NCBI GenBank assembly: GCA_044892525.1
Contig: CM097885.1
Coordinates: 23,686,001 to 23,746,000, forward strand
DNA length: 60,000 nt
Source of the DNA: Schmidtea polychroa
Lineage: Eukaryota
Reading direction: 5' to 3'
Position 1 is the first letter of the stretch; every line of letters starts with the position of its first letter. This document shows, one piece after another, positions 1 through 58,122 of the stretch. A program made the translations under genes and the position numbers. The notes beneath the pieces are model-generated. The model did no database searches. It was given only the letters and a program-made list of their open reading frames with translations, and had not been told where the DNA came from.

Positions 1-1794
1 AAGATAAATCACCTTTATGAAATTGGATCTTCATCAAAAAGTTTATATATCAAAATAATTGTTGGGCTAGAACTGATTTCTAGACCCAAACTTCTAATTA
101 TGACCGAAATGTGTAGGTACACAACATGCAAAAGCAAGAAGTATAGCTAAATATTAAAACTACACCAAATAAACAATAGTAGTTAAAGGAAAAAAAAACA
201 ACAAAAACCTAAACACAGAAATTAAATAAAATTATACCAAAAGCAAGAGGTTAGGCAAAATAGAACTCGAAAATAACCAAATAAACACAGATAAACAAAA
301 ACAGACTCGAATAACCTAAAAGACAGTAAAAACAGTTAAAAATTCCAGAAAAACCCAGAACATTTCATAAAAATGGCGATGACCATCACAAAAGCCATTT
401 AGAACAATAAAAGTTAGAGAAAATAAATAAATTAGTATTAAAAATAAAAAAATCTTAAAAAGAAATTCCTAAAACATCAGTTAAGATGAAAATTGTATTA
501 AAAATAAAATAGAATGTTCTGGAACCGTTCCAAATCCATCATGGACGGCAAATTAACGAAAAATAGTTAAAAAATAAAATATAAAAATAAAAACAAAAAT
601 TATGGCACAAAAATTGCCATTAAAAATAGCAAAATCGCTAAATAGAAAGTTCTGGAATAAAAAGAATTCGAGTTTGTTTTACTGCATCAATACATACACG
701 TGTACAAAATAGGTATATATACCGACACGTTTCGGGCATGATTTAGTCATTTATGCCAAAATTTTTTGTTGACCAAATTTTGAAGGAAACTGATAGTAGG
801 TATTTTTTTTGCATTGTTAACCATGTATGTAACTATTTTAATGAATACCATTTAATAATTAAATTATTCTTACTAAATTCGTTGTTATTTAGAAAATATG
901 ACTGATCAGCGGCGTCACTGTGCGTCGCTATTCCGTCCTGCATTCGGGATATCGAATAAAATTTTTATGCAACCTACCAACATGCATTATTCGTACTATA
1001 TTGATCGATACTATATGATTTCTTTTTGTTCGGGTCCTTCGGAGGTCGAACTACTTCATGGTCCTGCCATGGAGTTAGGTCGAGGAAAACCTCCGTCTGA
1101 CTCTTTGTATTTATGTAAGGTCGACCGTAAATGGTTGACTCAACACTCCACACTAAGGTTTGTGGAAGTGGTCACAGTGGGGCCATGGAAGCAATATTCT
1201 TCCCGACTGTTATTTAATACACATGCAAAATCCACATTCAAAATCATGAACAACGACTCCACACTAAGGTCCTAATTTGAGTAGAACTCATACCTAAAAT
1301 TACACAATTCTGCAATCACATCAATGTAGCTGGTTGAGCAATAATAGGAATTTCAACTATACTTAGACATATGCCGAACTAGATTTTATAGCAGGGGTTT
1401 ATGGTAGAGTAATGGAAATGAGAAAGATATTCGGCATACGTGCAAGTATAACTTAATCTAGAGGGACTAATTCAAAGTAAATGTAGGTATTCTAAACCCA
1501 ATTCCCACTTTAAAATATTCATGAATACATAAAGACTTAGTCATAATTTATAGGAATGATTATGAGATCTTAGATAATTATATTGATCTTAAAATGTAGA
1601 TCATTAATAGGTAAATAATAGAAAGTATAGATTTTGTGTATGAAATTTTTACAACTAATTATATGAATGGGGAATTTCGAGAAAGACAACTTATAAATGG
1701 CTACCGATAACCCGAGGAAATTTTGGAAAACTATGTTGATCACGTAAAGGTAATTCATAAGAAGTTAGATAAAGCTGACTAGAAGTTCATAAAT

Positions 1795-2144
1795 TGTAAA
1801 GTATAAAAATTAGAATATAAAATCATTAAGTAAAAACTTAAACTCGTGAATTGTTAAATATAAAATTATAAACTACAAAATATGTAACTATAAATTATAA
1901 AACCTAAATTCCTAAATTGAAAAACATAACATTATAAATATAAAATTTTAAAGTATAAAATATAAAGTCGCAAATTATTAAATATAAAATTATGAATTAT
2001 AAAATATATACTTAGAAATTATAAAGTATAAATTGGGAAATTGTAAAATATAAAATTTTAAATTACAGGTGGAAATTTATAACTTGCAAAAGGTAACATC
2101 CTAAATCATAAAATATGAATTCCTAAATTGTGAGATACAAAATA
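1795..2144. repeat. Degenerate AT-rich minisatellite (aaattataaa-like units)
   Basis: Recurrent AAATTATAAA/AAATTGTAAA units; the array stops abruptly at AGTAGTAGG (2145). Confidence 0.6.
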
Positions 2145-2289
2145 AGTAGTAGGATGTGGGCCATCCAGATCAGGGGCCCTCCAGGCCACATATACCCCCT
2201 CCCCCCCGGGAAAAATTTTTTTTTTTAAATAAAAGGTCAAGGTCAAGGTCATTTATTTTTTTTTAATTTAATTTTTTGTTTTAATTAAT

Positions 2290-3420
2290 GATCCAAAGGG
2301 CCCCTACTTTTTTTCATCCCAAAAATTAATGTTCCCGCCAACAGATTTTATTGAACAATAGCTCATCTTAAAGCCCAATGCAAGACCTTTCGAATGAGAT
2401 ATAGATTCCTATCATACGATGACTCATCTCATTTTTAGAACAAAGATAAAGACTAACCCAATGTCACATAATTTTTTAAAATTAAGTGATCCAGAGGGCC
2501 CCTACTTTTTTTCATCCCAAAAATTAATGTTCTTGTTAACAGATTTTATTGACCGATACCTCATCTTAAAGCCCAGTCCAAGACCTTTCGAATGAGCTAT
2601 AGGTATCATATATATCTTTAATAGTTTTAATGTTATTAACATTTGATGACCACCATCTTTTCAACGTTAAATTATTATTATTTGTCAAAATATTATTAAG
2701 TGATCCAGCGGGCCCCTACTTTTTGTCATCCCAAAGATTAATGTTCCCGCAAACATATTATATTGATCGATAGCTTATTTTAAAGCTCTGTGCAAGAACT
2801 TTCTAATGAGATATAGATTTTTATCATACGATGACTCATCACATTTTTAGAACAAAGACAATGACTCATCATATTTTTAGAACGATGCCTAATATTTTTA
2901 GATTGATTACGTCATACTTTTAGAACGATGCCTAATATTTTTAGAACGATGCCTATTATTTTTAGAATGATTACGTCATACTTTTAGAACGATGCCTAAT
3001 ATTTTTAGAACGATGCCTAATATTTTTAGAACTATTACGTAATCGATGCCTAATATTTTTAGAACTATTACGTAATTTTTTAAAATTAAGTGATCCAGAG
3101 AGCCCCTACTTTTTTCCATCCCAAAAATTAATGTTCTCGTTAACAGATTTTATTGACCGATACCTCATCTTAAAGCTCAGTCCAAGACCTTTCGAATGAG
3201 CTATAGGTATCTTATATATCTTTAATAGTTTTAATGTTATTAACAATTGATGACCACCATCTTTTCAACGTTAAATTATTATTATTTTCCAAAATATTAT
3301 TAAGTGATCTGGCGGGCTCACACTTTTTTTCATCCCAAAATTTAATGTTCCCATTATCCGAATTTATTGGACGATACCTCTTCTTAAAGCTCAGTCCAAG
3401 ACCTTTCGAATGAGCCATAG
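2290..3420. repeat. Five imperfect ~200-bp tandem units
   Basis: Core GATCCAGAGGGCCCCTACTTTTTTCATCCCAAAAATTAATGTTC...AAGACCTTTCGAATGAG recurs near 2290, 2489, 2703, 3093 and 3305; an internal TTTTTAGAACGATGCCTAATA expansion lies at ~2870-3070. Confidence 0.9.
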
Positions 3421-3509
3421 AAGGTATCATCATCATTATTATTAACAAAGAGAATGACTCACCCAATGACTCACCCAACGATGTCTAATATTTTTAGAAC
3501 GATGACTCA

Positions 3510-3973
3510 TCAAGGTCAAGGTCAAATTTTTAATAAAAGGTCAAGGTCATTTATTTTTTCAAGGTCATTTATTTTTTCAAGGTCATTTATTTTTTCAAGG
3601 TCATTTAATTTTTAATAAAAGGTCAAGGTCATTTATTATTTTCAAGGTCATTTATTTTTTCAAGGTCATTTAATTTTTAAATAAAAGGTCAAGGTCATTT
3701 ATTATTTTCAAGGTCATTTATTTTTTCAAGGTCATTTATTTTTTCAAGGTCATTTATTTTTTCAAGGTCATTTATTTTTTCAAGGTCATTTAATTTTTAA
3801 TAAAAGGTCAAGGTCATTTATTATTTTCAAGGTCATTTATTTTTTCAAGGTCATTTAATTTTTAAATAAAAGGTCAAGGTCATTTATTATTTTCAAGGTC
3901 ATTTATTTTTTCAAGGTCATTTATTTTTTCAAGGTCATTTATTTTTTCAAGGTCATTTATTTTTTCAAGGTCA
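3510..3973 (+). repeat. 18-bp minisatellite built on TCAAGGTCA
   Basis: About 24 copies of TCAAGGTCA, mostly as TCAAGGTCATTTATTTTT, with a higher-order AAAAGGTCAAGGTCA variant. Confidence 0.95.
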
Positions 3974-4004
3974 TTTATTATTTTTTAAGTTTTTAGTTTC
4001 TAAG

Positions 4005-4107
<103 letters not shown>

Positions 4108-4126
4108 ATTATAATTATAATTATTA

Positions 4127-4180
4127 TATACTCCTAGTCTATCCGACAAGATATTCTGTCCCCCTATGGGTACTGCACAC
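4127..4180 (+). repeat. Dispersed ~90-bp motif, copy 1 (partial)
   Basis: TATACTCCTAGTCTATCCGACAAGATATTCTGTCCCCCTATGGGTACTGC; other copies at ~4251-4358, 5371-5462, 7272-7360, 9213-9308 and inverted at ~11046-11134. Confidence 0.9.
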
Positions 4181-4578
4181 AAATTATTTTCAAAGTTTTA
4201 ATCAATATTATTATTATTATTAATATTATTATTATTATATTATTATCATATATACTCTTAATCTATCCGACAAAATATTCTATCCCTCTATGGGTATTGC
4301 TCATATGGGTAATGGTCAAAGGTGTACTACTCACATTCAACATGTCTCAAAGGGTATAATATAATTATTATTAAATTCTGACCAACTTAAATCAATGAAG
4401 GGGTAGAACAAAAATATATTAAGTTGCGGTATTTTAAATTTAAAAATATTTTAAAAACTTATTTTGACACTAAAGTTTACTTAATTAACAAAGACATAAT
4501 TATTGCACATGCTTTGCATAAATATTATTATTTTTTAAATTTTCAATATTTTCTTTTAAAGTATTAACACGCGCGGGC

Positions 4579-4644
<66 letters not shown>

Positions 4645-5160
4645 GTTAATGAAAAATCTAAAATATGGTTTACACACACAACCCCTCAACCATTATTATT
4701 ATTATCAATATTAAAAACATAAAATATTTTCTACACACACACACATGCACAACTCATTAACCATTATTATTATCATTATTAGTGAAAACCTAAAATATTT
4801 TTTACACACACACACAACCCATTAACCATTATTATTATTATTATCAATATTAAAAACCTAAAATATTTTTACACACACACACATACAACTCATTAAACTT
4901 ATTATTATTATTATTATTATTGCAAATATTAGTCAAAAACCTAAAATATTATTTACACTCACACAACCCATTAACAATTATTATTATCAATATTAGTGAA
5001 AACCTAAAATATTTTCTACACACACACACACACAACCCATTAACCATTATTATTATTGCAAATATTAGTCAAAAACATAAAAACACTCATAAACCATTAT
5101 TATTATCAATATTCGTGAAAACCTCAAATATTTTTTACACACATATACAACCCATTAAAC

Positions 5161-5212
<52 letters not shown>

Positions 5213-5235
5213 GTGAAAAAACCTTAAATAATTTT
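4645..5235. repeat. ~60-70-bp minisatellite with CA and ATT tracts
   Basis: Repeated AAAACCTAAAATATTTT(T)TACACACAC..AACCCATTAACCATTATTAT units. Confidence 0.85.
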
Positions 5236-5446
5236 TACATACTAAGTTATGGGGTAGAGTATTATTATGTTTGCAGTATTCTGTGTTTGCCTTTACAGGA
5301 AGTTGTCAATAAGGAGCGATAATTTTACACACACATTCTATATACACATACCTTGTTTAACATGGGTGTATATACTCCTAGTCTATCCGACAAAATATTC
5401 TGTCCCCCTATGGGTATTGCTCACAAAGGTACTACTCACACTCAAC

Positions 5447-8400
5447 ATATCGCAAGGGTATATTAATTATTGTTAGTAAATAAAACCTATCACACACACT
5501 TTTATATTTAAACGATAAAAATCAAGACAGGAGAGGACAAGGCAAAGTTTATGCATTTAGTATTGCCAGGCCTAATGAGCAGTGATCAAATATCTGTGCC
5601 TGAAAGACACGGTGGATATTTGTTCGCGTCCACAAGGGTCGTCTGTGCCTCCCCCAAGTGGGGTCAGAAGAACCTGGGCATTATAGCTTTCCGTACGGAA
5701 CATTACGCCTAGCATGGGTAGTCAACTACCAGCACATTCGAAACGTATAATTTCAAAATACATGCGTCATTGGCACTATAACCAAATTAATTAATGTTTT
5801 CACTAACACAAATATATATTTACAGAGGCCTCCCACTAGTTGGATTACAACCGCCCACCACGACGATCAGCTTGTAAATATATATTAATTAAGGGATAAA
5901 GTGGACCCACCCAACCCTATTATATTTAATTTACAAATTTTTCTCGCTCTTCTGCTGGTAATCTATCTCAAAATTATCATCTCTATCGGGCCACTTGATA
6001 GTGATTTCATGGAATACATCTTGCAAATTGGACGTATTTCTTAGTTTCTGATGCGGCGTCCACTATCATTGCTAAAATATATATTGATTTAAAAGCAATT
6101 AACTTACATTATCTAACATTTTATCGTCACAAATTAAATTCTGTCTGACTATTAGGCAACTGTTATTTGTGGTATACTTTTTCAATGTCATTTCCCACCA
6201 TAAAACACAGATACCTAAATATAATATATATATATTTTAAAAGATTAATTCATGTCTTACATTAATAATAATATTCTTCAGGTAGTACTTTACAATATCT
6301 AATTGATAAAACATCGGTTTTTTCCCATTTTTCTTGACATTCGTTGAAAGTTTACATAATTTAAGTAAACATTCATGTTGAAGGACACCCCCAATCAGCT
6401 AATTCATTTAAGAAATCCCGAACATAGCAATGTTTCACCATTTTGTCTGGTTCATTTTCTTCTATAATTCATGTTTTAATAAGAAATCTCTAAATCCAGA
6501 ACATAAGTCATTTAGTGTTTCACCATTTTGTTCATCTTCTTCATAATTATATAATTCATTTTCTTCATTACTAAGTAAAATAATTAAAATATTTTAGTAA
6601 ATTCTTTATTTACTTACTTTATGGATACTAAAACGAAAGAAATAACGTTATATCAGAATTATATTTAAATAATTTAAATTTAGTTATTTAAACATATTTA
6701 AACACTTTAGTTATTTAAGCATATTTAAACATTAATATTATTATATAGTATAATTTTATATAATTTTATATAATATTATAATATTATAATATTATGTATT
6801 GTAAATTTAATATATCCTTAATTTAATTTTTTAAATTCAAAAATTTATAATGAAGATTCTTTGAATTAAAAAATATTCTGTTAGTATTTCCAGGCAGAAA
6901 ACAACGAATTCAATAATTAAAATCTTAATTTTCATGTTGTTAGGGTTGTGGCCAGAAGTTAATCGCCATCTAATCGTTTGTTCTCAATTTCGCTCATTTT
7001 TGTTCAAAACATTCAGGTGAGTTGTTATCTGGAAAGTTTCTTTGAGCTCAGTTTTGTTAAAACACTCACGGTATTTTTGAGGGACGTGTCACTGGAAATA
7101 AATTAACAATGGGTAGTCATACATACATGTTGTTGGTTTGAACTGATGATTTATTTTAGAAATATGTATATTAAAAACATTTAAGGTATCATTCAGTAAA
7201 ATAATATAGTATTTTTGAGTATTTTTAGTTAATTTATAAATAACAGTATTTTGATATATCAATAAAGACCATATACTCCTAGTTTATCCGACAAAATATT
7301 CTGTCCCCCTATGGGTATTGCTAGCAAGGGTACTGGTCACACTCAACAAGACGCAATATTAATCATTTAGAAATTCTTAGGTAAGATAATCAGAAATTTG
7401 TGAATATTTTAAATGTAACTTTACACTTATGTCGAGCGACTAATTTATTGGTTAACTTTGTAGTCATTTAAAGCAAAAATTAATTTATTCATCTAATGTT
7501 CGTTACAATAGATAATAATATGAGAAAAACATGGTCATTATTCATTGATAATTTTAAATTCATTATCATTTGGAGTAAATTTGTTTGAGGCAAAAATATT
7601 TAAAGGAGTCATAATAGAAATATGGTTATCATTTAACCAAATAAGGTGCTTATTAGTTAAAAATATATATTTATATAGGGTTACAATTCTTTTCTAATTT
7701 AATTAGATGATCATTAGACGTAATATATCTTTGCGAGAAATTTAAGATGTTTGAGTAACCAAAACATTGATATTTTGGGTCATCAATTTATGAATAGTGC
7801 TTAATTTTCTCATTTTTAGTGATTTAAAATAATATTTAGCAAAGGTAATTTGGCAAAATATCACTTATCCATCCGATAACAATATTCCTTCAATAGATTA
7901 ACTGATATTCAACCGATTTAATTTCTAATTAAAATCATAAAATTCCTTCAATAAAGATCAATTTTCTTTAGCCGTTGTCCATTTCCAACTTTTAAGTCAA
8001 TATTTCTCAAGTTTTGTCACTGATGTCCCCACAATGAATAAAATAACTTCTTAAGTAAAATAATTTAAAGCAATAACCTTTGATATCAATCCCAATTAAT
8101 TCTAAAGATTTCAAATATTTCATTGTGAAAACCAAGTAAATTGATCATTAACCCTAAACGACTTAATAAAACAGTGGATAATTAATATAAAACTGGTTCT
8201 AAAACATAAATCTAAATTACTGTGCAATAACATTCATCACAACCTAATAAACCTCTAAAACGATATAATTTCACAGGAACTATTATTAATTCATAGCTAA
8301 ATACTGACTATTTCCCTTTAAAATTTTACCAATAAGAACATTGTCGATTTAAATAGAGATTTCAAACATTTCCACCTTAACCGATCCCTCACCAAATATT

Positions 8401-9086
8401 TCTATCATTTTAAACACCTTAAAAATCGTATATTACCATCTTAACCAACCGACTTTAATATATCAGACCTTTAATATATCAATTCTCTTAAAATCCATAG
8501 AAAATTCTTCAAAATATGAATTTTATTTATTTGTTACAGACATCCGTCCATTGAAATAATTTAGTATCTAAATTCATGTAGTAAGAGCCCATTAAAAAAA
8601 TCAAAATTCACTAAAATCAATATTTTCTACAAATATTTCACCACATTTACCATCAAATACCTAACTAGAAATGAAATATATCGATTGATCATAATTCTTC
8701 ATCGATTCAGCTAATTATATAGCAATTATAACGTGATATATCTTTCAAAATCACAAATTTCAGTATATTTTACAATAATTTTTACAAAAATTAAATAATA
8801 ATAACTTGATTATTGTAAAAACTTTAATTATTAACCTAACTGTCATTAAAAATATTATTATTTAAAAGTAAATTTAAAAAGTAAATTTAAAAATTTAAAA
8901 GTCAATAAAATATAGCAAATTATCAAGAAATTAATTAAATTTGTCTTAGAATTAACACTAAAACGTTAAATTTCAAAATATTCTTTCAATTATTCACAAA
9001 AAGGTTAGTAATAATGTTAGTAAAATCCCGCTAACTCTAAAAATTACCAATGAATTTAATGCTAAATAATAACCAAAAATTTGCCT
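5447..9086 (+). repeat. Left arm of a 7.2-kb inverted repeat (palindrome)
   Basis: Reverse complement of 9321-12692; e.g. 9061-9086 pairs with 9321-9346 and ATATCGCAAGGG (5447) pairs with CCCTTGCGATAT (12692). Confidence 0.97.
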
Positions 9087-9320
9087 CGGTGTTATTAAAA
9101 TTATCTTTCGACTTTACGCTTCTTACCATTTTAGAATAAGATTTTTTATCAAAATTTGTGTTAATTTGACTGATTCAATTTGATGGAGTTATTGTTAATT
9201 CGTTTTATTATATATACTCTGAGTTTATCCGACAAGATATTTTCTCCCTCTATGGATACTGTTCACAATTGGTACTGCTCGTAAGGGTACTGGTCGTAAA
9301 GGTACTGGTGTGTTTTATTT

Positions 9321-12300
9321 AGGCAAATTTTTGGTTATTAATTAGCATTAAATTCTTTGGTAATTTTTAGAGTTAGTGGGATTTTACTAACATTATTACT
9401 AACCTTTTTGTGAATAATTGAAAGAATATTTTGAAATTTAACGTTTTAGTGTTAATTCTAAGACAAATTTAATTAATTTCTTGATAATTTGCTATATTTT
9501 ATTGACTTTTAAATTTTTAAATTTACTTTTTAAATTTACTTTTAAATAATAATATTTTTAATGACAGTTAGGTTAATAATTAAAGTTTTTACAATAATCA
9601 AGTTATTATTATTTAATTTTTGTAAAAATTATTGTAAAATATACTGAAATTTGTGATTTTGAAAGATATATCACGTTATAATTGCTATATAATTAGCTGA
9701 ATCGATGAAGAATTATGATCAATCGATATATTTCATTTCTAGTTAGGTATTTGATGGTAAATGTGGTGAAATATTTGTAGAAAATATTGATTTTAGTGAA
9801 TTTTGATTTTTTAATGGGCTCTTACTACATGAATTTAGATACTAAATTATTTCAATGGACGGATGTCTGTAACAAATAAATAAAATTCATATTTTGAAGA
9901 ATTTTCTATGGATTTTAAGAGAATTGATATATTAAAGGTCTGATATATTAAAGTCGGTTGGTTAAGATGGTAATATACGATTTTTAAGGTGTTTAAAATG
10001 ATAGAAATATTTGGTGAGGGATCGGTTAAGGTGGAAATGTTTGAAATCTCTATTTAAATCGACAATGTTCTTATTGGTAAAATTTTAAAGGGAAATAGTC
10101 AGTATTTAGCTATGAATTAATAATAGTTCCTGTGAAATTATATCGTTTTAGAGGTTTATTAGGTTGTGATGAATGTTATTGCACAGTAATTTAGATTTAT
10201 GTTTTAGAACCAGTTTTATATTAATTATCCACTGTTTTATTAAGTCGTTTAGGGTTAATGATCAATTTACTTGGTTTTCACAATGAAATATTTGAAATCT
10301 TTAGAATTAATTGGGATTGATATCAAAGGTTATTGCTTTAAATTATTTTACTTAAGAAGTTATTTTATTCATTGTGGGGACATCAGTGACAAAACTTGAG
10401 AAATATTGACTTAAAAGTTGGAAATGGACAACGGCTAAAGAAAATTGATCTTTATTGAAGGAATTTTATGATTTTAATTAGAAATTAAATCGGTTGAATA
10501 TCAGTTAATCTATTGAAGGAATATTGTTATCGGATGGATAAGTGATATTTTGCCAAATTACCTTTGCTAAATATTATTTTAAATCACTAAAAATGAGAAA
10601 ATTAAGCACTATTCATAAATTGATGACCCAAAATATCAATGTTTTGGTTACTCAAACATCTTAAATTTCTCGCAAAGATATATTACGTCTAATGATCATC
10701 TAATTAAATTAGAAAAGAATTGTAACCCTATATAAATATATATTTTTAACTAATAAGCACCTTATTTGGTTAAATGATAACCATATTTCTATTATGACTC
10801 CTTTAAATATTTTTGCCTCAAACAAATTTACTCCAAATGATAATGAATTTAAAATTATCAATGAATAATGACCATGTTTTTCTCATATTATTATCTATTG
10901 TAACGAACATTAGATGAATAAATTAATTTTTGCTTTAAATGACTACAAAGTTAACCAATAAATTAGTCGCTCGACATAAGTGTAAAGTTACATTTAAAAT
11001 ATTCACAAATTTCTGATTATCTTACCTAAGAATTTCTAAATGATTAATATTGCGTCTTGTTGAGTGTGACCAGTACCCTTGCTAGCAATACCCATAGGGG
11101 GACAGAATATTTTGTCGGATAAACTAGGAGTATATGGTCTTTATTGATATATCAAAATACTGTTATTTATAAATTAACTAAAAATACTCAAAAATACTAT
11201 ATTATTTTACTGAATGATACCTTAAATGTTTTTAATATACATATTTCTAAAATAAATCATCAGTTCAAACCAACAACATGTATGTATGACTACCCATTGT
11301 TAATTTATTTCCAGTGACACGTCCCTCAAAAATACCGTGAGTGTTTTAACAAAACTGAGCTCAAAGAAACTTTCCAGATAACAACTCACCTGAATGTTTT
11401 GAACAAAAATGAGCGAAATTGAGAACAAACGATTAGATGGCGATTAACTTCTGGCCACAACCCTAACAACATGAAAATTAAGATTTTAATTATTGAATTC
11501 GTTGTTTTCTGCCTGGAAATACTAACAGAATATTTTTTAATTCAAAGAATCTTCATTATAAATTTTTGAATTTAAAAAATTAAATTAAGGATATATTAAA
11601 TTTACAATACATAATATTATAATATTATAATATTATATAAAATTATATAAAATTATACTATATAATAATATTAATGTTTAAATATGCTTAAATAACTAAA
11701 GTGTTTAAATATGTTTAAATAACTAAATTTAAATTATTTAAATATAATTCTGATATAACGTTATTTCTTTCGTTTTAGTATCCATAAAGTAAGTAAATAA
11801 AGAATTTACTAAAATATTTTAATTATTTTACTTAGTAATGAAGAAAATGAATTATATAATTATGAAGAAGATGAACAAAATGGTGAAACACTAAATGACT
11901 TATGTTCTGGATTTAGAGATTTCTTATTAAAACATGAATTATAGAAGAAAATGAACCAGACAAAATGGTGAAACATTGCTATGTTCGGGATTTCTTAAAT
12001 GAATTAGCTGATTGGGGGTGTCCTTCAACATGAATGTTTACTTAAATTATGTAAACTTTCAACGAATGTCAAGAAAAATGGGAAAAAACCGATGTTTTAT
12101 CAATTAGATATTGTAAAGTACTACCTGAAGAATATTATTATTAATGTAAGACATGAATTAATTCTTTAAAATATATATATTATATTTAGGTATCTGTGTT
12201 TTATGGTGGGAAATGACATTGAAATGGGGTTGGGTGGGTCCTCTTTATCCCTTAATTAATATATATTTACAAGCTGATCGTCGTGGTGGGCGGTTGTAAT

Positions 12301-12691
12301 CCAACTAGTGGGAGGCCTCTGTAAATATATATTTGTGTTAGTGAAAACAATAATTAATTTGGTTATAGTGCCAATGACGCATGTATTTTGAAATTATACG
12401 TTTCGAATGTGCTGGTAGTTGACTACCCATGCTAGGCGTAATGTTCCATACGGAAAACTATAATGCCCAGGTTCTTCTGACCCCACTTGGGGGAGGCACA
12501 GACGACCCTTGTGGACGCGAACAAATATCCACCGTGTCTTTCAGGCACAGATATTTGGTCACTGCTCATTAGGCCTGGCAATACTAAATGCATACACTTT
12601 GCCTTGTCCTCTCTTGTCTTGATTTTTATCATTTAAATAGTGTGTGTGATAAGTTTTATTTACTAACCCTAATTAATATACCCTTGCGATA

Positions 12692-12692
<1 letters not shown>
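9321..12692 (-). repeat. Right arm of the inverted repeat; lacks ~260 bp corresponding to ~5920-6180
   Basis: Continuous reverse-complement match to the left arm; deletion junction at ~12224 (CATTGAAA|TGGGGTTGGG); 234-bp spacer at 9087-9320. Confidence 0.97.
10283..10412 (+). pseudogene. Decayed leucine-rich-repeat (F-box/LRR-like) fragment; mirror copy on the - strand at ~7995-8123
   Basis: Hand translation MKYLKSLELIGIDIKGYCFKLFYLRSYFIHCGDISDKT*EIL resembles the LxxLxLxxCxxITD repeat; flanks contain many stops. Confidence 0.35.
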
Positions 12693-12739
<47 letters not shown>

Positions 12740-13228
12740 CATTATTATTATTATTGTCACCGTTATTATTATCATTATCAGTAAATCCTCGATTATACAT
12801 AACTTAATTGTTAGTAATAACTTTGTCCTTAATGCATGTAAGTTCATTACGGGTACTCGTATATATATCTTTAATCATTGTAGAATATACTATTAAACCT
12901 ATAAATATTATATCAATTATAGATTATTATTATTAGTAGTGATTATTTATTTCAAAAAGCAATCCAATATCGATTTGGCATTTCCCCAATAAATCAAATT
13001 TAGAAACCACCCTTTGAGCCAATCAGAGGGATCAGAATTCTGAAAAACTATTTTTAGCAACACCCCCCCCCCCCTCTGGAAGAATGTTACCATTATTCAA
13101 GTCACCCAGGGATATGAATGAGGGGGTATGATCCACTACATAAGCTCACACCAAATGAGTAATCAAATATCTAATCGTTATTAAATGAAAGAAACGAAAG
13201 AATTTTACAATTTTATTCGAACAATAAA

Positions 13229-13512
13229 TTACCACACACAATTTGTCTTGAATACAAAATCCTGATTATGGACCAAGAATCGTAGGGCGAGTCCCAGAAG
13301 CTGAATCCTCGATAGCCCCAGCTGGGAAAAATAATCATCAAATTGCCCCTAAATTAGGTATATAAGACCAAGAAATAGATTACCTCTAATGAATAAATGA
13401 TGATTCCACCACCTATAACGAATACAACCAGGGGAAGAGTAAGTGAGCAAGAGACTGAGCTCGCCACTAGTACCCTTCGCCTGACGTAACCGCATTTGGT
13501 GGAAATATTCAT
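13229..13512 (-). CDS. Predicted 82-aa two-exon single-pass membrane protein (exons 13512-13384 and 13348-13229)
   Basis: MNISTKCGYVRRRVLVASSVSCSLTLPLVVFVIGGGIIIYSLE, then a 35-nt GTAATC..TTTAG intron, then GQFDDYFSQLGLSRIQLLGLALRFLVHNQDFVFKTNCVW*; splice keeps frame; AATAAA ~12 nt after the stop. Confidence 0.55.
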
Positions 13513-13904
13513 ATCTACAGAAAATTACCTAAAAATTTCTAAAAATTTTAACTTATAAAATTCAAATTACCAACTAGTGGTAAATAAATGCCGAATGATT
13601 AAATTAATAATTTAAAACAAAACCATTTTTTTGAGATTTTCGGATCGGGTATGGATTTTCTAACGTTAACACTTAACTCTAATAAATTTTTCTTTAATTT
13701 ATCTAATTAAAAAGTATATCAATAAATTAAATAAAATTTGGTTATGTTAGAGGTATTTATATTAATTATAATAAATTTGGTAGTATAATAAATTTAGTAG
13801 TTAAGTATTATTGATTTTAAACAAGAACTTTCTGTATGTTTGTTGTGACATCAATTTATAAGCCACATTGGGTACGAACGGGTCTTAATATCTATACTAC
13901 AGAC

Positions 13905-14264
13905 ATGTCTCAATCCAGCTCTAGCAGTGACGAGGGTACTGACCAGCAGACGATCACCCGTCTCCGGACCCGGTACATCTGGTACCATATACATCGGTGG
14001 GGTCAGGGACGGGACCTGGACTGCGCAGATAGAGTAATCCGGACGGGCCCCGAAGTAGATGCCCCGGCGTGGGTGAAGGTGGAGCCGGAGAATAACCGGT
14101 TACAGGAGGCCCGAGATCAAGCGGCCTGGGATGTGGAAGCCGCTCAGATGCGACTCAAGAAGATCGAGTTGCAAATCCGGGCAGAAAGGGAGGGAGTGCC
14201 CTTGGAGGAGTTAGAGGAGGCCACGGTACCCCCGAGAAAAAGAGGGAGGCCCCGCAAAGCGTGA
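13905..14264 (+). CDS. Small unknown protein with a C-terminal AT-hook/NLS (ORF track starts at 13836)
   Basis: GC-rich open frame ending PPRKRGRPRKA; GTATGT..TACAG intron-like segment at 13834-13902 makes ATG 13905 the likelier start; homolog at 57847-58122. Confidence 0.65.
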   Translation: MSQSSSSSDEGTDQQTITRLRTRYIWYHIHRWGQGRDLDCADRVIRTGPEVDAPAWVKVEPENNRLQEARDQAAWDVEAAQMRLKKIELQIRAEREGVPLEELEEATVPPRKRGRPRKA

Positions 14265-14458
14265 TTATCAGACTATAAATAACTTATTTTAGTCATTATA
14301 TCTATAGCACTGCTAGCTTCTAATGTGTATTATTTAAATAAAGGAAATTTTTCTCTTTTGGAGTCTTGCAATTCATAGAGTAAATTGAATAAGTGCAATA
14401 AGGTCGTAACCGGAAATGCTAACGTTAATAAATAATTTACATTTTCATTCTATTCGAT

Positions 14459-14959
14459 ATGAAGGAAACTGACAACTGTTGTGTTTTAGTGTACAAGTTA
14501 ATGGAAAATCTCCGGAAGGATCGGGAGCAGGCCCAACAATGTGCTGACGAACTCCGGGTCCGAGTGGACAAATTGAAAGGAAAATGTCGGGAGTTCGAAG
14601 GGACCTGGTTTAGTCCCGAAGCTATGAAGAAGAAAATAGCCCAGATCCTCCAGCTGCAAACGCAGGGCGCTCAGGACCAAATGGAGATTTGCGCCCTGAA
14701 ATTGCAGGTGCGGGCGCTCGAGACCGAGCGGAACGAGCGGTTTGTGCAAGAATCCGCAGCAAGACAAATACGGCCATTGACCGTGGAACTCGCGGCGATA
14801 TATCCCCCAGCCGCCGAAAATAAGCCCAAAAGAAAACGGCTTGGACGAAACATCCGCAAAAAATTAAAGAAAGCCAGACTGGCTGAGTATGAAAGGCAAG
14901 CGGGTTCGTCGCAAACGTCTACGACGGGATTAACCGGCCCCACCAACCGGCCGAGTTGA
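14459..14959 (+). CDS. Unknown coiled-coil protein with a basic NLS-like tail
   Basis: 166-aa GC-rich ORF in AT-rich surroundings; heptad-like E/Q/L/R pattern; KPKRKRLGRNIRKKLKK. Confidence 0.6.
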   Translation: MKETDNCCVLVYKLMENLRKDREQAQQCADELRVRVDKLKGKCREFEGTWFSPEAMKKKIAQILQLQTQGAQDQMEICALKLQVRALETERNERFVQESAARQIRPLTVELAAIYPPAAENKPKRKRLGRNIRKKLKKARLAEYERQAGSSQTSTTGLTGPTNRPS

Positions 14960-15736
14960 ACTTTTTTGCCGTGTTATTTATTTTTGTAGTGTGTTTTATA
15001 TGCGATGTAGTACTAAAATAATGTTTCTTTTGCTTATTGTTGAAATAATATATATTTTGTAGCGTTAAAATACTGTCTGGTATATTTGATGATTCTCTGG
15101 GAAACGAGAGCTTGTGCGTAAGATTGGGAAAACAATTTTGATAAGGGACCTGAGAAATCGGACACACACTTTCTATCGGTAGTCCGTGAACCCATGGAGT
15201 ACTCGACAATTATAGTGCTTTGATGCGCTCACTTTTTGCGAGTACTCAACTCTTGGTACAGTACCAACGTTGATTACTCAACGGGTACCAAGCGGAAACT
15301 AATGTTGCATGTTGGGTTACGCTGGTAACAGCACTTAATCATTCGACCACCTGTAACCCACCATAATTAATAACGACATGAAATCCAAAATACTCCTTAT
15401 GATTAAGTTTTTGATAAATCAAATTGTCAGGTTTTTCTACTGATTATAATTAAAGATTTTTGAACACAAATAAAAAAATTAATTTAAAAGCATTTGATAA
15501 AATACAATGAAGAATACTTAGTTGGTTGTAAGTAGCTTGTTGTAAGTGTTTAGTGTCCAGTTGTTTGAGAGATAGTACTTGATATCTGGTACCTAGCTGA
15601 TTGTTTCTTGTTGGGATCTAGTTGTTGGCACTAATCTGTTAGTATCTAGTTGTAAGTATCTAGTTGTTAGTACCTAGTTTAAAATATTTAGCAGCTTATA
15701 GTTAGTATCTGATTGTAAATAGTACCTAGATGGTAC

Positions 15737-17589: not shown

Positions 17590-19134
17590 ATGTCAAGACG
17601 AATTGAATATGAAGAATATAATTTACTTGAATTTTCATCGGGAAATGATACCTGCTCAGAGACATCAGATCATATTGAAGAATTGATTGAAACTTCTGAT
17701 AGTGACATAGATGATGAACCTTCTGGATCTATACCATATCTTTCTAAGGATAAAAGTATTGAATGGCAATCAGAGCCCGTCAATCCTCATCAAACGTGAT
17801 TAGAACTACCCCTGAAATCACATAATATGCTATTTCTCGCATATCAACAGAACTCTCTGGATTTCAATTATTGTTTACAAATTCTATAAAAACTATTATT
17901 ATTCAAAATACCAATTTGGAAAGAAATCGCATATATAAAGACGATTGGAAAAATATTTATATTATCAAATTGGACTTTTATAGTTAGCTGGTGTATATAG
18001 ATCGAATAATGAGGCTTTGGAAAATTTATGGCATGAAACAAAGGGTCGACATATATTCAGAGCTACTATGTCACTAAAACAATTCAAAATTATATCAAAA
18101 GTCATTCGATTTGATGATCGTAGTACACGAGCTGCTAGAAGAAATACTGACAAATTAGCTCCAATTCGAGAACTGTGGAATAAATGGGTCGAAATATTAC
18201 CACATCTTTATAATCCGAGCGAAAATATAACAATCGATGAGCAATTGGTTCCATACCGCGGAAAATGTCCATTTCGACAATGCATGCCAAAAAAGCCGGC
18301 TAAATATGGGATTAAATTTTGGGTGCTGTGCGATAGCAAAAATAATTATGTATGGAATATAGATATATACACTGAAAAAGTAGCTGGTGAAGCACCTGAA
18401 AGGAATCAAGGAAGGCGAGTGGTTTTAGATTTGTGCCAACAACTTGAAGGGAGGAATGTAACAGTTGACAACTTTTTCACTTCTTATGAACTAGGTCAAA
18501 TATTACTTTCCAAAAAAAAATACTATGATTGGCACTATTCCAAAAAATAAAACGTCAATTGCTGGAAGTAAAATGCAAAAAAAAATTAATGTGTTGTCCT
18601 TCAGAGTACTTTTCACAAAACAAAAGAATTGTCAGGTGGTTCTGAAAATAAACCTAATATTATATTAGATTATAATGCAACGAAAGGAGGAGTTGATACC
18701 TTAGACAAAATGATAGCAAATTACAGTATTCGAAGAAAAACAAATAGATGGCCAATTATTGTTTTTGCAAATATATTAGATATATCTATATCAAATGCAT
18801 TTATTTTATTTACAGTTGTTTGTCCAGATTGGAATATAAAAAAATCGAAAGCGAATCTTCATTGAAACCGTGGGCGAATTATTGATAAAAAGAACAAATG
18901 ACAAGACGGACCCATTTGTCACGAGCGGATAATTGCGAACAATTTATGTTAGAACAAAAATGCACAACTACATCTCCTTTAGAAGTACCAACAGCAAGGA
19001 TACGTGGTCAAAAAATAGGTAGATGTCACATTTGTCCAAAATCGGACAATAAACATGCATTAGAATATAAATATTGTAAAAGATTTATTTGTAAGGCACA
19101 TTCCTATAACGTATGTAATAAATGTAATAAATAA
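17590..19134 (+). pseudogene. piggyBac (PGBD4-like) transposase, frameshifted
   Basis: Motifs ITIDEQLVPYRGKCPF, KPAKYGIKFW, VTVDNFFTS, YNATKGGVDTLD and a C-terminal Cys-rich domain, split over several ORFs. Confidence 0.93.
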
Positions 19135-19158
19135 ATAATAAACAGATAAATCGCTCTT

Positions 19159-20067
19159 CAGAGCCGGATCTATGGGGGGGGGGGGTGCAAAGGATGCGAT
19201 GCACCCGGGCCCCCTCTCAAAAGGGCCCCGCCAAACACTTTTATCTTTCCACTTTTTTTTATTTATATTTTTAAAAAAATTGCACTCATTTTCCATTTTT
19301 TATAATTTTTTTTTTGACAAAAAATAAAAAAAAGATAAAATTATTTTTCCAAAATAGACATTACTTTTTTTCGAAAATGGTTGTTGTAATATTTCTGCAG
19401 CTGTATGAAAATATAGCAAAGAAAATTCTTCGATTCAATGTTTAATGGGTAGGGAAATTTTTAAATTAGATCTAGCATCACTGTTTGTTGCAAATACGTC
19501 AAAATTAAATTATTCCGCCATTTTCAAACAGCAAAAAGCAAAAATGTAAATGTGCGTCTGTTTTTTTTACTAAAAATAATTAATTTAAAAAGTGATTTAT
19601 ATTAAAATTATAAAATTACTTGTATTTTGTTTTAAATATTTGTGCAAAACTACTAACGTTTATTTGATTTGTATTTTTTATATGTACATAAATATTTGTT
19701 TTTGAATAGAAGTTTTATATTAATATATTATTTTGTTTGACAACAGCCACAATGTAAGCGTGACCTTTTTTTTCTAGAAGAAATAATTAATTTAAAAGCA
19801 ATATTGGTATATTTCTTTTTAGAAAATTGTTTCCGAACAATGGATATCAATTTTATATATCAATATATATGAAGATTTTAAAATATATTGTAAATGATCC
19901 ATTTATCTACATTAATCTACTTTAACTGAAAACTGTCAAATTACTGAAAAGCTACTAAAACATATACATTTATTTTTGAATAATTTTTGAATAGACTTTT
20001 TATATTTTATAAACAACAACCAAAATGTAAGTGTTTCTTTTTTATTAGAAATAATTTATGTATTTAA

Positions 20068-20103
<36 letters not shown>

Positions 20104-23100: not shown

Positions 23101-23492
23101 AGAGTTATGTTTTTCGTATTTTTATTTTGGATTTTTATCTTAAATAAATTTCTATACTATTTACAAAAGTTCAACAAGTTGCAAATGAATTTTAAGTGCA
23201 ATTTTTTTTATGTTTTTTTTTCGTTATATATTTTTTTGTTGTTTAATTATATTAATATAAATAAATAATTATTTTTTCTCTTAAAAGCTAATTATATTTA
23301 AAAAAAATCAAGTATTTTTTTAATAGCTGTGAATAATAAAAGTAAATAAATAAATCATGTTATTGTATTAATTAAAACTTATTGTTATTTTATTTTATTA
23401 GAAGAATAATTTTTTTTGAATGAATGGAAGAGGGCCCCAAAATCAAAATCGCTTCTTGCACCTGGGCCCCCAAGTGGCTAGATCCGGCGCTG
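19159..23492 (+). mobile_element. hAT transposon (Tip100/ZMYM-DUF4371-like), copy 1
   Basis: TIRs CAGAGCCGGATCTA / TAGATCCGGCGCTG (1 mismatch); 8-bp TSD TCGCTCTT at 19151-19158 and 23493-23500. Confidence 0.95.
20508..23101 (+). pseudogene. hAT transposase, disrupted
   Basis: MKRTYLSGAEKRK start; TTF-type zinc finger (VFCFCCFLF..HETGSFH); LAFRG..GNFLGLIEFLAKYD; RGQAYDNGANMKG; dimerisation motif TVASAERSFNKLKLIKTYLRSTM; frameshifts and an 81-bp foreign insert. Confidence 0.93.
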
Positions 23493-24296
23493 TCGCTCTT
23501 TATTATTCCTAAACAGTCAACTGTTACTAATAAAACTAATTTAATTATTTGCATTTTGTTTCTTTTAAGTCAACAATTTCTATCTGGGTCGAAAAAGACC
23601 CGAGGGACTTTAGTGTACAGTCAATTTAAGGGACGGATGAAGGTTAATAAAATTTGTATTTGAAAATTAATTCATAAAAATTTTGATTTAAAATTTTCAT
23701 TTCTCCAAAGCCGACTATTATTCAAACTTTTGATAATAAATTTAAAATTATTACTTTACTTATTACATTAATTTAAAATTTCTAACTTTAATTTATTTAA
23801 CTTTAAAATTTAGCCTTAAATTGAATTAATTTAACCCTTTATTTACCAAATATAGGCATTGATTTACTTAATTTTAAAATTTATAACTTAATTTATCTAT
23901 TTAACCAATAATTTCACGTGGTTATCTGGTAGTAAGTACTTGGTTGTTAATACTTAGTAGCTGATAGTTGGTATCTATTTGTAAATACTTAGTTGTTAGT
24001 ATTTGGTATTTATTTGTGGATATCTAGCTAGTTGTTAGTTAGTTGTTGAATTATTATTACTATTATTATTAGCAAAATTTGCATTTAAATTTCTCTTTGA
24101 AAATTATTTCATAAAAATTTCCATTTAAAATGGCTCTTTTTGTATTGAAAATTCCAGAAAAAAAGCGTAGCACATTGAGCAATTACGGAACCGTTACGCA
24201 AAAAACAATAACAGGAGCAATGGCCCCTTTGGGGGGACCCCACCGGATGGTCTGCTCCATGGAGTTACTAACTACCAATTATAATGATACGATTTT

Positions 24297-25208: not shown

Positions 25209-25940
25209 GCTTTCACCTTCCACCTGTCGTCCTAAAATTGTACCTAATGCTAAATTACTGCCATCAGTCATTACGATAAAAAATTTTTTAAATATGGACA
25301 TCTCAATAATTAAAACATCCGACATAAAAAATGTTTTGCAACTTGGGCAGCATATTTGTAGTTACAGTTGTAAAACTTCTGTAGATAGTGAGAATAGTTT
25401 TTCATGTTTTTCACATTATTATAATTTTAAAGTGAAACTGGCATAACTTGGAATTTTTCAACACTTATTTATTTTTTATTTTAAAAATTAACATTAATAT
25501 CAATTATTCATAAATGCAAAATTTTTCGACAAAAATGCAAAATTTTCAATTTTAATGCAAATTATTCTTTGTCCTAGATATTAACCTGTTAATTTCAAAC
25601 AGTTTGATATTTATGAAATAATAAAAATCTCCGACAATAAAATCATTGTAATTTCCTTTATTTTCATTTGCTTTCAGACAATGAGGCACCAATGAGAAAA
25701 TACATGTAAGCGTTTTTGATAATGACGTAATATACATACTTTTGAATAACCTTTTCCGACATAATTAATTTCTTGTGGCGTCAAAAACGTTTTGCACAGG
25801 AGCGCTTCTCGCCTATGGCACGGGACTTCTTTCAGGTTATAAAACAATATTTTGATTTATATTTAACACCCATAACCTTTTATAGCAACCTAAAGGAAAA
25901 CTGCCAAAACTCATGTTAAATACAAAATAAAATACTGATC

Positions 25941-35123: not shown

Positions 35124-35154
<31 letters not shown>

Positions 35155-57080: not shown

Positions 57081-57123
57081 CAAATTTTGATAAAAGAATT
57101 AATGAAATTACCCACCAACTAGT

Positions 57124-57355
57124 TCATAAAGTAGTAGGATAAAAATTAATTATCTGGTTAAATTTAACGAAATGTGATAACCAACAAGATCTCAATTCCT
57201 GAAATTAAACCATGTCAAAGTTATAAAAGAAATTACTTGCCGAACGATGCTGAAGTTGAAGCCACTCACTACCACTACGGTTAGGGATTGCTAGGGACCA
57301 GATACAAATCTAGGACGCATAGCGATACCCCTCCAATAATAAGTCTGAGTGGCAT
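57124..57355 (-). pseudogene. Two-exon hydrophobic peptide relic, positional counterpart of 13229-13512
   Basis: MPLRLIIGGVSLCVL.../..TVVVVSGFNFSIVRQ, then a 38-nt GTAATT..TTCAG intron (57236-57199), then ELRSCWLSHFVKFNQIINFYPTTL*; needs a frameshift. Confidence 0.35.
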
Positions 57356-57846
57356 AATTTTTGCGAAGCATATTAGGATAACAAAAAAGGGAAATACGAA
57401 ATTATTTGAAATATGATGATTATTTAATATAATTGGGAATTAAATTTTGAAGCAGATAAACAAGAGTCCGAAATTTTTTTTTCCTCTTACCCCATCCCTC
57501 CTATTTTGTGAGATCCAAATTTATTAATTTTGAATTTAAATATTTCAGCTTTAATCTGGTAATTTATAACTTATAAATCGTTAATTTAATAAACTTGGTA
57601 ATTTGTAAATTGTAAATTCTTAAGTTAAAAAGATTTCTTTTTTCACGTAAGTAAATTGAACAATTTAATGCGGGAACCAAATAGGGGTTGGGGAGTCCAC
57701 TTTAAATCAAAAAAATCATTAGCAATTTGATGGAATGGGTATGATGCCGGAGTTCGAAATGTGACAACGTGCCCAAGCGTCCTTGGTTGACAAAACTAGG
57801 GCGCATAAACAAAACTTCGATTAAAATTTTTTTTACTCTATCAGGT

Positions 57847-58122
57847 ATGCCTAATAGAACTCGAAAACCCGAACAAGCAGCCCTTCATCCTCTGCGTCGG
57901 ACCTCAGAGAAATCCAAGAGGGGGTAGATGAAGCCTCCAGGCTGGGCATAGAAGAAGAGATTACCCGCCTAAGGTCCCGGTGGATCTGGTATAAGATCCA
58001 CGATTGGACTTACCAGAATGTGGTTCCGGTGGTCCCAAAAGCAGAACCCTCAATCAATGCTACCTCCCTCGCTCTAATCGAAGCCTTCGAGAATGTTGAG
58101 GAAGCCGTGGATCGGTTGCAAC
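57847..58122 (+). pseudogene. Homolog of the 13905 ORF, interrupted by a hAT insertion
   Basis: ITRLRSRWIWYKIHDW versus ITRLRTRYIWYHIHRW (12/16 identical); AFENVEEAVDRL versus AAWDVEAAQMRL; frameshift near the start. Confidence 0.75.

What the first reader, a model, noticed from the sequence alone, without database searches (positions are those of the whole stretch)
13229..14959. Divergent small-gene module (spliced membrane peptide opposite AT-hook and coiled-coil ORFs), with a homolog 44 kb away
Seen: an 82-aa two-exon transmembrane gene on the - strand (missed by the ORF track) lies head-to-head, ~390 bp apart, with a 119-aa AT-hook ORF, followed by a coiled-coil/NLS ORF. All three frames are open although the neighbouring transposons are decayed. 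The same layout recurs at 57124-58122, with the conserved motif ITRLRxRxIWYxIHxW and an intron-like segment just before the + strand ATG in both. I recognise no family. Inference: a conserved accessory cassette of an uncharacterised large mobile element. Giant planarian Burro-type LTR elements are reported to carry spliced antisense accessory transcripts, which is one candidate host.
Basis: partly seen in the sequence, partly recalled or inferred. Interest (0 to 1): 0.72.

Follow-up and report, generated by a model that had tools for sequence, protein, structure and literature searches.

The report
Regulatory genes inside giant retrotransposon LTR
The module is part of the end repeat (LTR) of a giant flatworm jumping gene found in over a thousand copies; it holds two conserved small genes, likely regulators of the element, and a folded antisense stretch that is probably a non-coding RNA rather than the membrane peptide first proposed.

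Summary
Window 60-15363 is a solo LTR (TG..CA, TAAT duplication) of a Burro1-type giant Gypsy element; 57084-58122 is a second, broken LTR of the same family. The two sense ORFs are real genes: dN/dS 0.11-0.22 between subfamilies, both present in 14 of 20 LTRs sampled by promoter alone, no relatives in the protein databases searched. ORF2's conserved start is not the ATG at 14459: its exon opens AG|TG (81/82, 15/15 copies), and the LTR's first exon ends in A (27/28), so splicing likely builds the start codon A|TG. The 82-aa membrane peptide is not conserved (start codon, frame and stops vary; dN/dS about 1). That block is instead a ~100-nt hairpin with compensatory changes, favoured on the antisense strand and followed by a conserved 35-44-nt GT-AG intron (39/45). 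RT is 99-100% identical across copies while the cassette proteins fall to 35-45%. Best reading: a complex-retrovirus-like regulatory cassette inside the LTR (AT-hook DNA binder, coiled-coil/basic adaptor, antisense RNA). No spliced read was obtained; functions are inferred. Earlier notes of this scan saw the Rev-like ORF and common-leader splicing in other Burro copies. Grohme 2018 and Lee 2026 could not be read.

The parts
60..15363 (+). Solo LTR of a Burro1-type giant Gypsy element (about 5.5 kb of LTR sequence, split by insertions between ~1461 and ~12702)
   Evidence: TG..CA ends, 4-bp duplication TAAT on both sides, no primer-binding site after it; 60-1461, 12702-14257 and 14485-15364 match one LTR of a paired element at 80-83%
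697..740 (+). Predicted LTR promoter: CACGTG box, TATATATA, initiator-like site
   Evidence: Most conserved part of the LTR 5' end; the 26-mer at 697-722 has 1,073 exact matches in the genome, reversed control 0; transcription start inferred, not mapped
733..795 (+). Predicted short first (leader) exon ending in A before a GT donor at 796; 5' end approximate
   Evidence: Last base A in 27 of 28 LTRs with a donor (30 examined), background 156 of 485; its own ATG is not kept in frame (phase 1 and open in 7 of 25)
13349..13383 (-). Short antisense GT-AG intron (35 nt), predicted
   Evidence: GT plus YAG at the same place after the hairpin in 39 of 45 model hits, 4.2% at 945 control offsets; interiors diverge; no spliced read
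13404..13504 (-).
   Evidence: -45.1 kcal/mol, z -5.6; 98.7% of cells paired, 6 of 33 pairs with two-sided change in 7 family-1 copies; 92.3% and 10 of 30 in 13 family-2 copies
13520..13830 (.). AT-rich spacer (19% GC); candidate antisense promoter and candidate target of the AT-hook protein
   Evidence: Composition; role inferred
13903..14264 (+). ORF1 exon: acceptor AG at 13901-13902, ATG 13905, 119-aa protein with W-x-x-I-H-x-W helix, long helix, C-terminal AT-hook-like RGRP motif
   Evidence: dN/dS 0.19 (11 family-1 subfamilies) and 0.22 (25 family-2); model helices 12-32 and 64-96, mean pLDDT 64; Pfam AT_hook 10.3 bits, below cut-off 17.4
14490..14959 (+). ORF2 exon: begins TG after acceptor AG 14488-14489; 156-aa coiled-coil protein with basic KPKRKRLGR stretch if the leader supplies the A of ATG
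   Evidence: AG|TG in 81 of 82 and 15 of 15; first in-exon Met only at codon 40-45 in 11 of 15; dN/dS 0.11 and 0.19; helices 2-39, 42-103, 119-139, mean pLDDT 80
15133..15363 (+). Conserved LTR 3' end (U5-like), shared by both cassette families
   Evidence: 77-81% identity between families
57084..58122 (+). Fragment of a second LTR (cassette family 2); 5' side abuts a decayed BEL/Pao element; continues at G000:C1:23746259-23747709
   Evidence: 96% identical to another family-2 LTR; BEL/Pao domains
57257..57366 (-). Family-2 antisense hairpin
   Evidence: Covariance-model hit 101.5 bits (this copy is in the model's training set); z -3.4
57199..57236 (-). Family-2 short antisense intron (38 nt), predicted
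57845..58122 (+). Family-2 ORF1 exon, broken (frameshift near 57878, cut by an insertion after 58122)
   Evidence: sister copies give 154-182-aa proteins ending in the same RGRP motif

Best explanation
The module is the 3' half of the LTR of a Burro1-type giant Gypsy retroelement, and it holds two protein genes under purifying selection plus a conserved antisense hairpin that together likely form the element's own regulatory cassette, as in complex retroviruses. Shown: LTR identity, coding selection on ORF1 and ORF2, conserved splice signals, base-pair covariation in the hairpin. Inferred: a promoter about 650 nt into the LTR makes a ~65-nt leader exon that is spliced either to the ORF1 exon (own ATG two bases after the acceptor) or to the ORF2 exon, where the leader's last A and the exon's first TG form the start codon; both genes would then lie in an unusually long R region, so a solo LTR could express them alone. 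ORF1 most likely binds AT-rich LTR DNA through its AT-hook and activates or de-silences the element; ORF2 most likely oligomerises through its coiled coil and uses its basic stretch for nuclear import and RNA binding, helping the long unspliced RNA escape splicing or leave the nucleus. The AT-rich spacer most likely also drives a spliced antisense non-coding RNA that starts with the hairpin.
For: LTR pairs 99.8-99.9% identical around Gag/fusion protein/Pol; window copy has TG..CA and TAAT duplication. ORF1 hit in 15, ORF2 in 16, both in 14 of 20 LTRs picked by promoter only. dN/dS 0.11-0.22 in the claimed frames, 1.1-2.3 in the out-of-register frames. AG|TG in 81/82 and 15/15, first in-exon Met at codon 40-45 in 11/15; no phase-1 donor shared inside ORF1 among 21 subfamilies; leader ends in A in 27/28 against 32% background, a prediction written down before looking (note). 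Precedent for a start codon split by splicing in insect ERV env (bioRxiv 10.1101/2023.08.03.551782, passage). Hairpin: alignment folds at -28.2 antisense against -1.3 sense, 0/500 shuffles reach the paired fraction, antisense z lower in 18 of 21, intron follows in 39/45. Seven internal accessory ORFs of the C3 element also start 0-3 nt after an AG.
Against: No spliced junction was seen in any RNA data; the runs available were contigs of uncertain type. Transcription start and poly(A) site are unmapped: AATAAA follows ORF2 by 20-30 nt in 9 of 13 family-2 subfamilies but in 0 of 8 family-1, and the window copy has none. The leader carries an upstream ATG in 25 of 28 copies, usually out of frame, which would compete with A|TG; one copy ends in G. 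A 4.5-kb R would need a very long strong-stop DNA. The AT-hook scores below the Pfam cut-off. No structural or sequence relative supports either function. The hairpin also folds, less well, on the sense strand, the structures were derived from the alignments they were counted on, and related sequences can beat the shuffle control. One further family-1 lineage (L147) also keeps an 82-codon antisense frame.
Confidence: 0.6

Rival explanations
1. One reading: a divergent pair in which a spliced antisense gene encodes a conserved 82-aa membrane peptide.
For: Frame open in this copy with a hydrophobic stretch (Kyte-Doolittle 2.26 over 19 residues); the short intron is conserved; second codon positions of an 11-codon core are the best conserved in that frame (0.85 against 0.74 and 0.69); the donor is usually 24 nt after the motif; L002, L003 and the more distant L147 keep the whole frame.
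Against: In-frame ATG in 4 of 20 subfamilies, stop two codons before the stretch in 6, stop within eight codons after it in 6, pN/pS 0.81 like the other five frames; dN/dS 1.34 in exon 1 among 6 family-1 subfamilies and frameshifts in exon 2; donor spacing is 24 or 25 nt; base pairing explains the conservation.
Confidence: 0.1
2. ORF1 and ORF2 lie in U3 and are made either from an internal promoter in the AT-rich spacer or only from the 3' LTR by splicing of the full-length RNA; R is short and solo LTRs do not express them from the 5' promoter.
For: A donor-like GTATGT lies 69 nt before the ORF1 acceptor in the window's subfamily; the spacer is 19% GC; U3 genes and internal promoters are known from MMTV and foamy viruses (recalled); a short R eases reverse transcription.
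Against: The nearby donor is not shared across subfamilies and ends in T or G, which gives ORF2 no ATG; the only TATA/initiator/donor set conserved in the LTRs aligned is at 697-797.
Confidence: 0.17
3. The hairpin works as single-stranded minus-strand DNA during reverse transcription (strand transfer signal) or as a sense-strand response element, not as an antisense RNA.
For: Minus-strand strong-stop DNA has the antisense sequence; both strands fold better than shuffles in the window copies.
Against: A GT-AG intron is conserved on the same strand 20-21 nt after the hairpin, which only RNA would need; G-U pairs are tolerated on the antisense strand.
Confidence: 0.08
4. The ORFs are kept by selection on the host after insertion (domesticated solo-LTR genes) rather than by the element's replication.
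For: Solo LTRs with target duplications are common (8 of 20 sampled); a Burro1 BIR-RING gene is reported to help planarian stem cells (seen only as cited in PMC13465017).
Against: Selection is strongest between subfamilies (pN/pS about 0.2) and weaker among near-identical copies (0.4-0.5); window copy against sisters shows mostly replacement changes in ORF2 (5 to 1); many copies are broken.
Confidence: 0.05

Closest known systems
Burro1 / GYPSM1 giant Gypsy LTR element of Schmidtea mediterranea (PMC6431247 section 7, read whole)
   Same: Size over 30 kb, Gag with CCHC knuckles, MATH, fusion glycoprotein before PR-RT-RH-IN, ankyrin, BIR, RING; polyprotein frame of ~4,790 codons against 4,873 aa published.
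   Different: That section describes accessory ORFs and domains but nothing coded inside the LTR, no split start codon and no antisense hairpin. Grohme 2018 with its supplements, the Repbase entry and Lee et al. 2026 (PMC13047482) were not readable and may describe some of it.
Regulatory genes of complex retroviruses: HIV Tat/Rev, HTLV-1 Tax/Rex/HBZ, foamy Tas/Bet, MMTV Sag/Rem (recalled; Tat, Rev and the HTLV antisense promoter also named in PMC7264820)
   Same: Small basic proteins made from spliced RNAs, structured RNA elements, antisense transcription from the LTR.
   Different: No sequence or fold similarity found; both genes lie wholly inside the LTR downstream of its predicted promoter; the predicted DNA-binding motif is an AT-hook; binding and export activity are untested.
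Split initiation codon of env in springer-subclade insect ERVs (bioRxiv 10.1101/2023.08.03.551782, passages)
   Same: Start codon completed by a splice junction from a 5' leader.
   Different: There AU comes from the leader and serves env; here a single A would serve a non-env gene inside the LTR.
Additional ORFs of plant LTR elements: Grande gene23, RIRE2, Retand, PvRetro13 (PMC7264820, parts 1-2 of 3 read)
   Same: Conserved orphan ORFs, nuclear or coiled-coil (SMC-like) products, proposed regulatory role, antisense transcription.
   Different: Those lie between pol and the 3' LTR, mostly antisense with their own promoter; these are sense and inside the LTR.

Membership tests
Burro1/GYPSM1 | LTR element over 30 kb with long LTRs | tested here: met
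   LTR pairs of 5.4-5.9 kb spanning 38.7, 40.2 and ~50 kb; TG..CA, primer-binding site and 4-bp duplications
Burro1/GYPSM1 | Gag with CCHC knuckles, MATH, env-like fusion protein ahead of PR-RT-RH-IN, ankyrin | tested here: met
   PF00098 (2 stretches pass; the published three not counted), PF22486, PF24664, PF00077, PF00078, PF17917, PF00665, PF12796 in that order
Burro1/GYPSM1 | Single polyprotein of about 4,870 aa | tested here: met
   Stop-to-stop frames of 4,773-4,846 codons around many of the 150 RT hits
Burro1/GYPSM1 | BIR, RING and TRAF accessory domains | tested here: met
   PF00653, PF13920, PF02176, PF21355
Burro1/GYPSM1 | Sequence identity to the published Burro1 rather than Burro2-4 | not testable with these tools
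   No reference sequence held; papers not held
AT-hook proteins | RGRP core flanked by basic residues and proline | tested here: inconclusive
   RGRP invariant in 11 of 11 aligned copies; Pfam PF02178 10.3 bits, cut-off 17.4; profile hits are to multi-AT-hook proteins only
AT-hook proteins | Binds the minor groove of AT-rich DNA | not testable with these tools
   Needs a binding assay
Rev/Rex-type export adaptors | Arginine-rich RNA-binding and import motif | tested here: inconclusive
   Basic stretch is Lys/Arg mixed; K115, R116, G118 invariant in 8 of 8
Rev/Rex-type export adaptors | Leucine-rich export signal, cognate RNA element bound, export activity | not tested
   Hairpins exist in the LTR but no binding or export test was possible
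Protein-coding gene (antisense 82-aa membrane peptide) | Conserved start codon, frame across the junction and dN/dS well below 1 | tested here: not met
Conserved structured RNA (antisense hairpin) | Compensatory base changes, strand-specific fold | tested here: met
Known RNA families (pre-miRNA, TAR, RRE) | Match to an Rfam model | tested here: inconclusive
   Two chance-level matches, E 2.6 and 3.6, in 13200-15400

The most novel reading that the evidence does not exclude
Every intact Burro1 LTR, including the many solo LTRs, is a self-contained, alternatively spliced two-gene unit with a multi-kilobase R region: one short leader switches on a DNA-binding activator or, by donating the A of a split start codon, an RNA-export adaptor, opposed by a structured antisense RNA. 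The cassette exists as deeply diverged alleles (35-45% protein identity) swapped among elements whose RT is 99-100% identical, as expected from an arms race with piRNA silencing or from allele-specific protein-target pairs. Over a thousand dispersed copies could then regulate full-length elements, and perhaps host chromatin, in trans in planarian stem cells.
Probability: 0.3. Interest if true: 0.82.

Novelty: new variant of a known kind. Interest (0 to 1): 0.62.

Why it matters
Solo LTRs are normally read as inert promoter relics; here they would be complete small-gene units, present over a thousand times in one genome. It would show that a Gypsy element evolved a Tat/Rev/antisense-type control layer independently of retroviruses, placed inside the LTR, and it gives concrete, cheap targets (two junctions, two proteins, one hairpin) for asking how a 30-40-kb element full of splice sites exports its genome and stays active under PIWI silencing (PMC8532177, passages). 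Burro1 is reported to aid planarian regeneration (seen only as cited in PMC13465017), so its switch is of interest to that field.

Tried and rejected
RNA evidence: no RNA holder listed; contigs of X1, X2, X3, X6 on the window and X7, X8, X9, X1 on a family-2 LTR showed no GT-AG joint; X7 has a few low-depth contigs on ORF1, ORF2 and the LTR end, which I do not count as evidence. Homolog searches: ORF1 profile none among 7,994 scored candidates, longer proteins one AT-hook-only hit, 1.84 billion representatives two multi-repeat proteins matching only the C-terminal third; ORF2 profile one 157-aa ENA protein that reads like an unspliced family-2 copy; ESM Atlas nothing usable; metagenome, viral and phage collections none. 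Fold searches: no match at E<=0.001, best Z 4.8 to generic helices; this shows neither a new fold nor absence of relatives. Plus-strand donor at 13439 as the source of the A: present in family 1 only, dropped. A sense-strand peptide in the hairpin block (tblastx hit): stops in many copies, dropped. ORF1-ORF2 fusion by splicing: no shared phase-1 donor in 21 subfamilies. A conserved leader peptide: phases 0/1/2 in 5/10/10 copies, dropped although 9 hand-picked LTRs first suggested it. Flatworm trans-spliced leader ending in AUG (recalled): would be out of frame with both ORFs. Joint fold of both families on the sense strand gave no pairs. An ORF2 self-association prediction was not obtained, so oligomerisation rests on the monomer model only.
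Full report
What is there. Searching the own genome with ORF1 gave 2,582 candidates and with the second copy 2,089; 150 of 150 scored matched each time, many in same-strand pairs 29-46 kb apart.

The host element. Tiles across two such pairs showed direct repeats of 5.4-5.6 kb at up to 99.8% identity, with TG..CA ends, 4-bp target duplications and a primer-binding site that looks tRNA-Pro-like (name recalled). Between them lie CCHC knuckles, MATH, a viral fusion glycoprotein domain, PR, RT, RNase H, integrase, ankyrin, TRAF, BIR and RING. This is the anatomy of Burro1/GYPSM1 (PMC6431247 section 7, read whole); RT hits sit in frames of about 4,790 codons. The genome (781 Mb, four large contigs) fits Schmidtea mediterranea, by inference. 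In the window the LTR runs 60-15363, flanked by TAAT, with no primer-binding site: a solo LTR split by later insertions. The second site is a fragment of another LTR, 57084-58122, cut by an insertion and resuming beyond the window. A 26-nt promoter string has 1,073 exact matches, reversed control 0. Of 20 LTRs taken in genome order by that string (second members of pairs skipped), 15 had ORF1, 16 ORF2, 14 both; 8 were solo with target duplications, 6 were 5' LTRs, 6 unresolved.

Two real genes. Among subfamily representatives dN/dS is 0.19 and 0.22 for ORF1 (11 and 25 sequences) and 0.11 and 0.19 for ORF2 (8 and 15); out-of-register frames give 1.1-2.3. These counts come from 120 loci, of which 109 had the anchor motif; ORF1 was the search query, so its integrity is biased upward, ORF2 was not. 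Selection weakens among near-identical pairs (pN/pS 0.50 and 0.39, 18 and 14 disjoint pairs), so it acts mainly on replicating lineages. The two cassette families share only 41-45% (ORF1) and 35-41% (ORF2) identity, yet internal regions next to a family-2 LTR are 85-97% identical to a family-1 element over most of their length, 73% in one stretch, and its RT is 99% identical. One family therefore carries deeply diverged LTR cassettes. No relative was found outside the element. Models: ORF1 four helices and disordered ends, mean pLDDT 64; ORF2 two long helices, a basic linker and a third helix, mean pLDDT 80; fold searches gave only generic helices.

How ORF2 starts. The ATG at 14459 is confined to some subfamilies; what is kept is a branch-point-like and pyrimidine tract and AG|TG. 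AG|TG occurs in 81 of 82 copies where the ORF2 start was found and in 15 of 15 of the promoter-picked set, in 11 of which the first in-exon Met is at codon 40-45 although the first 40 codons are conserved. An invariant TG suggests the last two letters of Met. I noted that a donor exon ending in A was needed. No phase-1 donor is shared inside ORF1 (21 subfamilies). Prompted by an earlier scan note on common-leader splicing (e1-8578977), I aligned the LTR 5' end and found CACGTG, TATATATA, an initiator-like site and a ~65-80-nt exon. Its last base is A in 27 of 28 loci with a donor (30 examined), against 156 of 485 for such motifs in the window, although G is the usual base there (splice consensus recalled). 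The leader's own ATG is not kept in frame (7 of 25 open and phase 1). A start codon completed by splicing is known for env in springer-type insect ERVs (bioRxiv 10.1101/2023.08.03.551782, passages). ORF1 has an in-frame ATG two bases after an AG in 102 of 109 copies (this was the search rule), and seven internal accessory ORFs start 0-3 nt after an AG. If the promoter is at ~700 and 3' ends fall after ORF2 (AATAAA 20-30 nt after the stop in 9 of 13 family-2 but 0 of 8 family-1 subfamilies), both genes lie in an R region of about 4.5 kb. This step is inferred.

The antisense unit. The peptide is not conserved: ATG in 8 of 23 family-1 copies, second exon in frame in 4 of 23, dN/dS 1.34 in exon 1; across 20 subfamilies of both families an in-frame ATG in 4, a stop two codons before the hydrophobic stretch in 6, pN/pS 0.81 (these 20 were picked by a motif-plus-donor rule). 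Against this, second codon positions in an 11-codon core are the best kept, and L002, L003 and L147 retain the full frame. It forms a ~100-nt stem: -45.1 kcal/mol, z -5.6 antisense, -34.4, z -4.4 sense. Thirteen family-2 copies fold at -28.2 antisense and -1.3 sense as alignments, with 92.3% of cells paired and 10 of 30 pairs changed on both sides, 0 of 500 shuffles as high; seven family-1 copies give 98.7% and 6 of 33, 11 of 500. The tool warns that kinship alone can beat this control. A covariance model of family 2 found 46 strong hits in 100 sources and weak antisense hits (E 0.03-0.6) at the matching place in five family-1 loci; several subfamilies gave none. In 39 of 45 hits (one duplicate dropped; 13 were training sequences) a GT and a YAG define a 35-44-nt intron right after the hairpin, against 4.2% at 945 control offsets. 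Rfam has no match. So a spliced, structured, probably non-coding antisense RNA is the better reading.

Mechanism. Most likely the LTR carries the element's control layer. ORF1, with an AT-hook-like tail next to 19%-GC LTR DNA, would act on transcription or silencing; Burro1 is de-repressed on loss of SMEDWI-2 (PMC8532177, passages). The antisense RNA would dampen or tune the unit. Confidence is about 0.9 for LTR and coding status, 0.75 for the split start codon, 0.7 for a non-coding antisense RNA and 0.35 for the specific protein functions.

Limits and print. No spliced read was obtained. Ten literature searches (listings seen) found no description of coding genes in Burro LTRs, but Grohme 2018, its supplements and Lee et al. 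2026 are not held, and Jurka's 'Smc' motif in GYPSM1 could be any coiled coil, ORF2 included. Other papers seen: PMC11410931, PMC6884822, PMC13465017 and 10.64898/2026.01.28.702291 as passages, PMC7264820 parts 1-2 of 3. Verdict: known element, new variant of a known kind of system; interest 0.62.

Noticed in passing
window 18408-33470 and 33465-48524: 15-kb tandem duplication at 99.98% identity holding hAT remnants, a small Gypsy element and a tetraspanin-like ORF; could be recent or an assembly artefact.
   Followed up: no
window 26485-27564 and 41539-42618 (-); L045:7028-8038: Intronless 359-codon tetraspanin-like frame (PF00335, E 1e-9), with a further copy just left of the window, among transposons.
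   Followed up: partly
window 5444-12695: Insertion inside the solo LTR with long inverted arms (6180-9086 / 9321-12224, 99.7%; 5444-5921 / 12223-12695, 96%) ending in an ATT microsatellite.
   Followed up: no
   Followed up: partly
L189:5918-6559: A third, far-diverged ORF2-like frame (GTWFSP motif, E 8e-5) starting AG|ATG in an LTR without an ORF1 hit.
   Followed up: no
L199: LTR in which the hairpin-ORF1 segment is inverted between two copies of another repeat.
   Followed up: no
L036:8695-9174 and L039: A RING ORF directly after the 5' LTR and a row of 3' accessory ORFs (TRAF, BIR-RING, three unknown), each starting 0-3 nt after an AG.
   Followed up: partly
window 53865-57123 (-): Decayed BEL/Pao element (RT, Pao peptidase, DUF5641) abutting the second LTR fragment.
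   Followed up: partly
L091 and L092 (C2:133.00-133.12 Mb): Solo LTR copied in a ~29-kb tandem array, 99.6% identical units, at least five hits.
   Followed up: no
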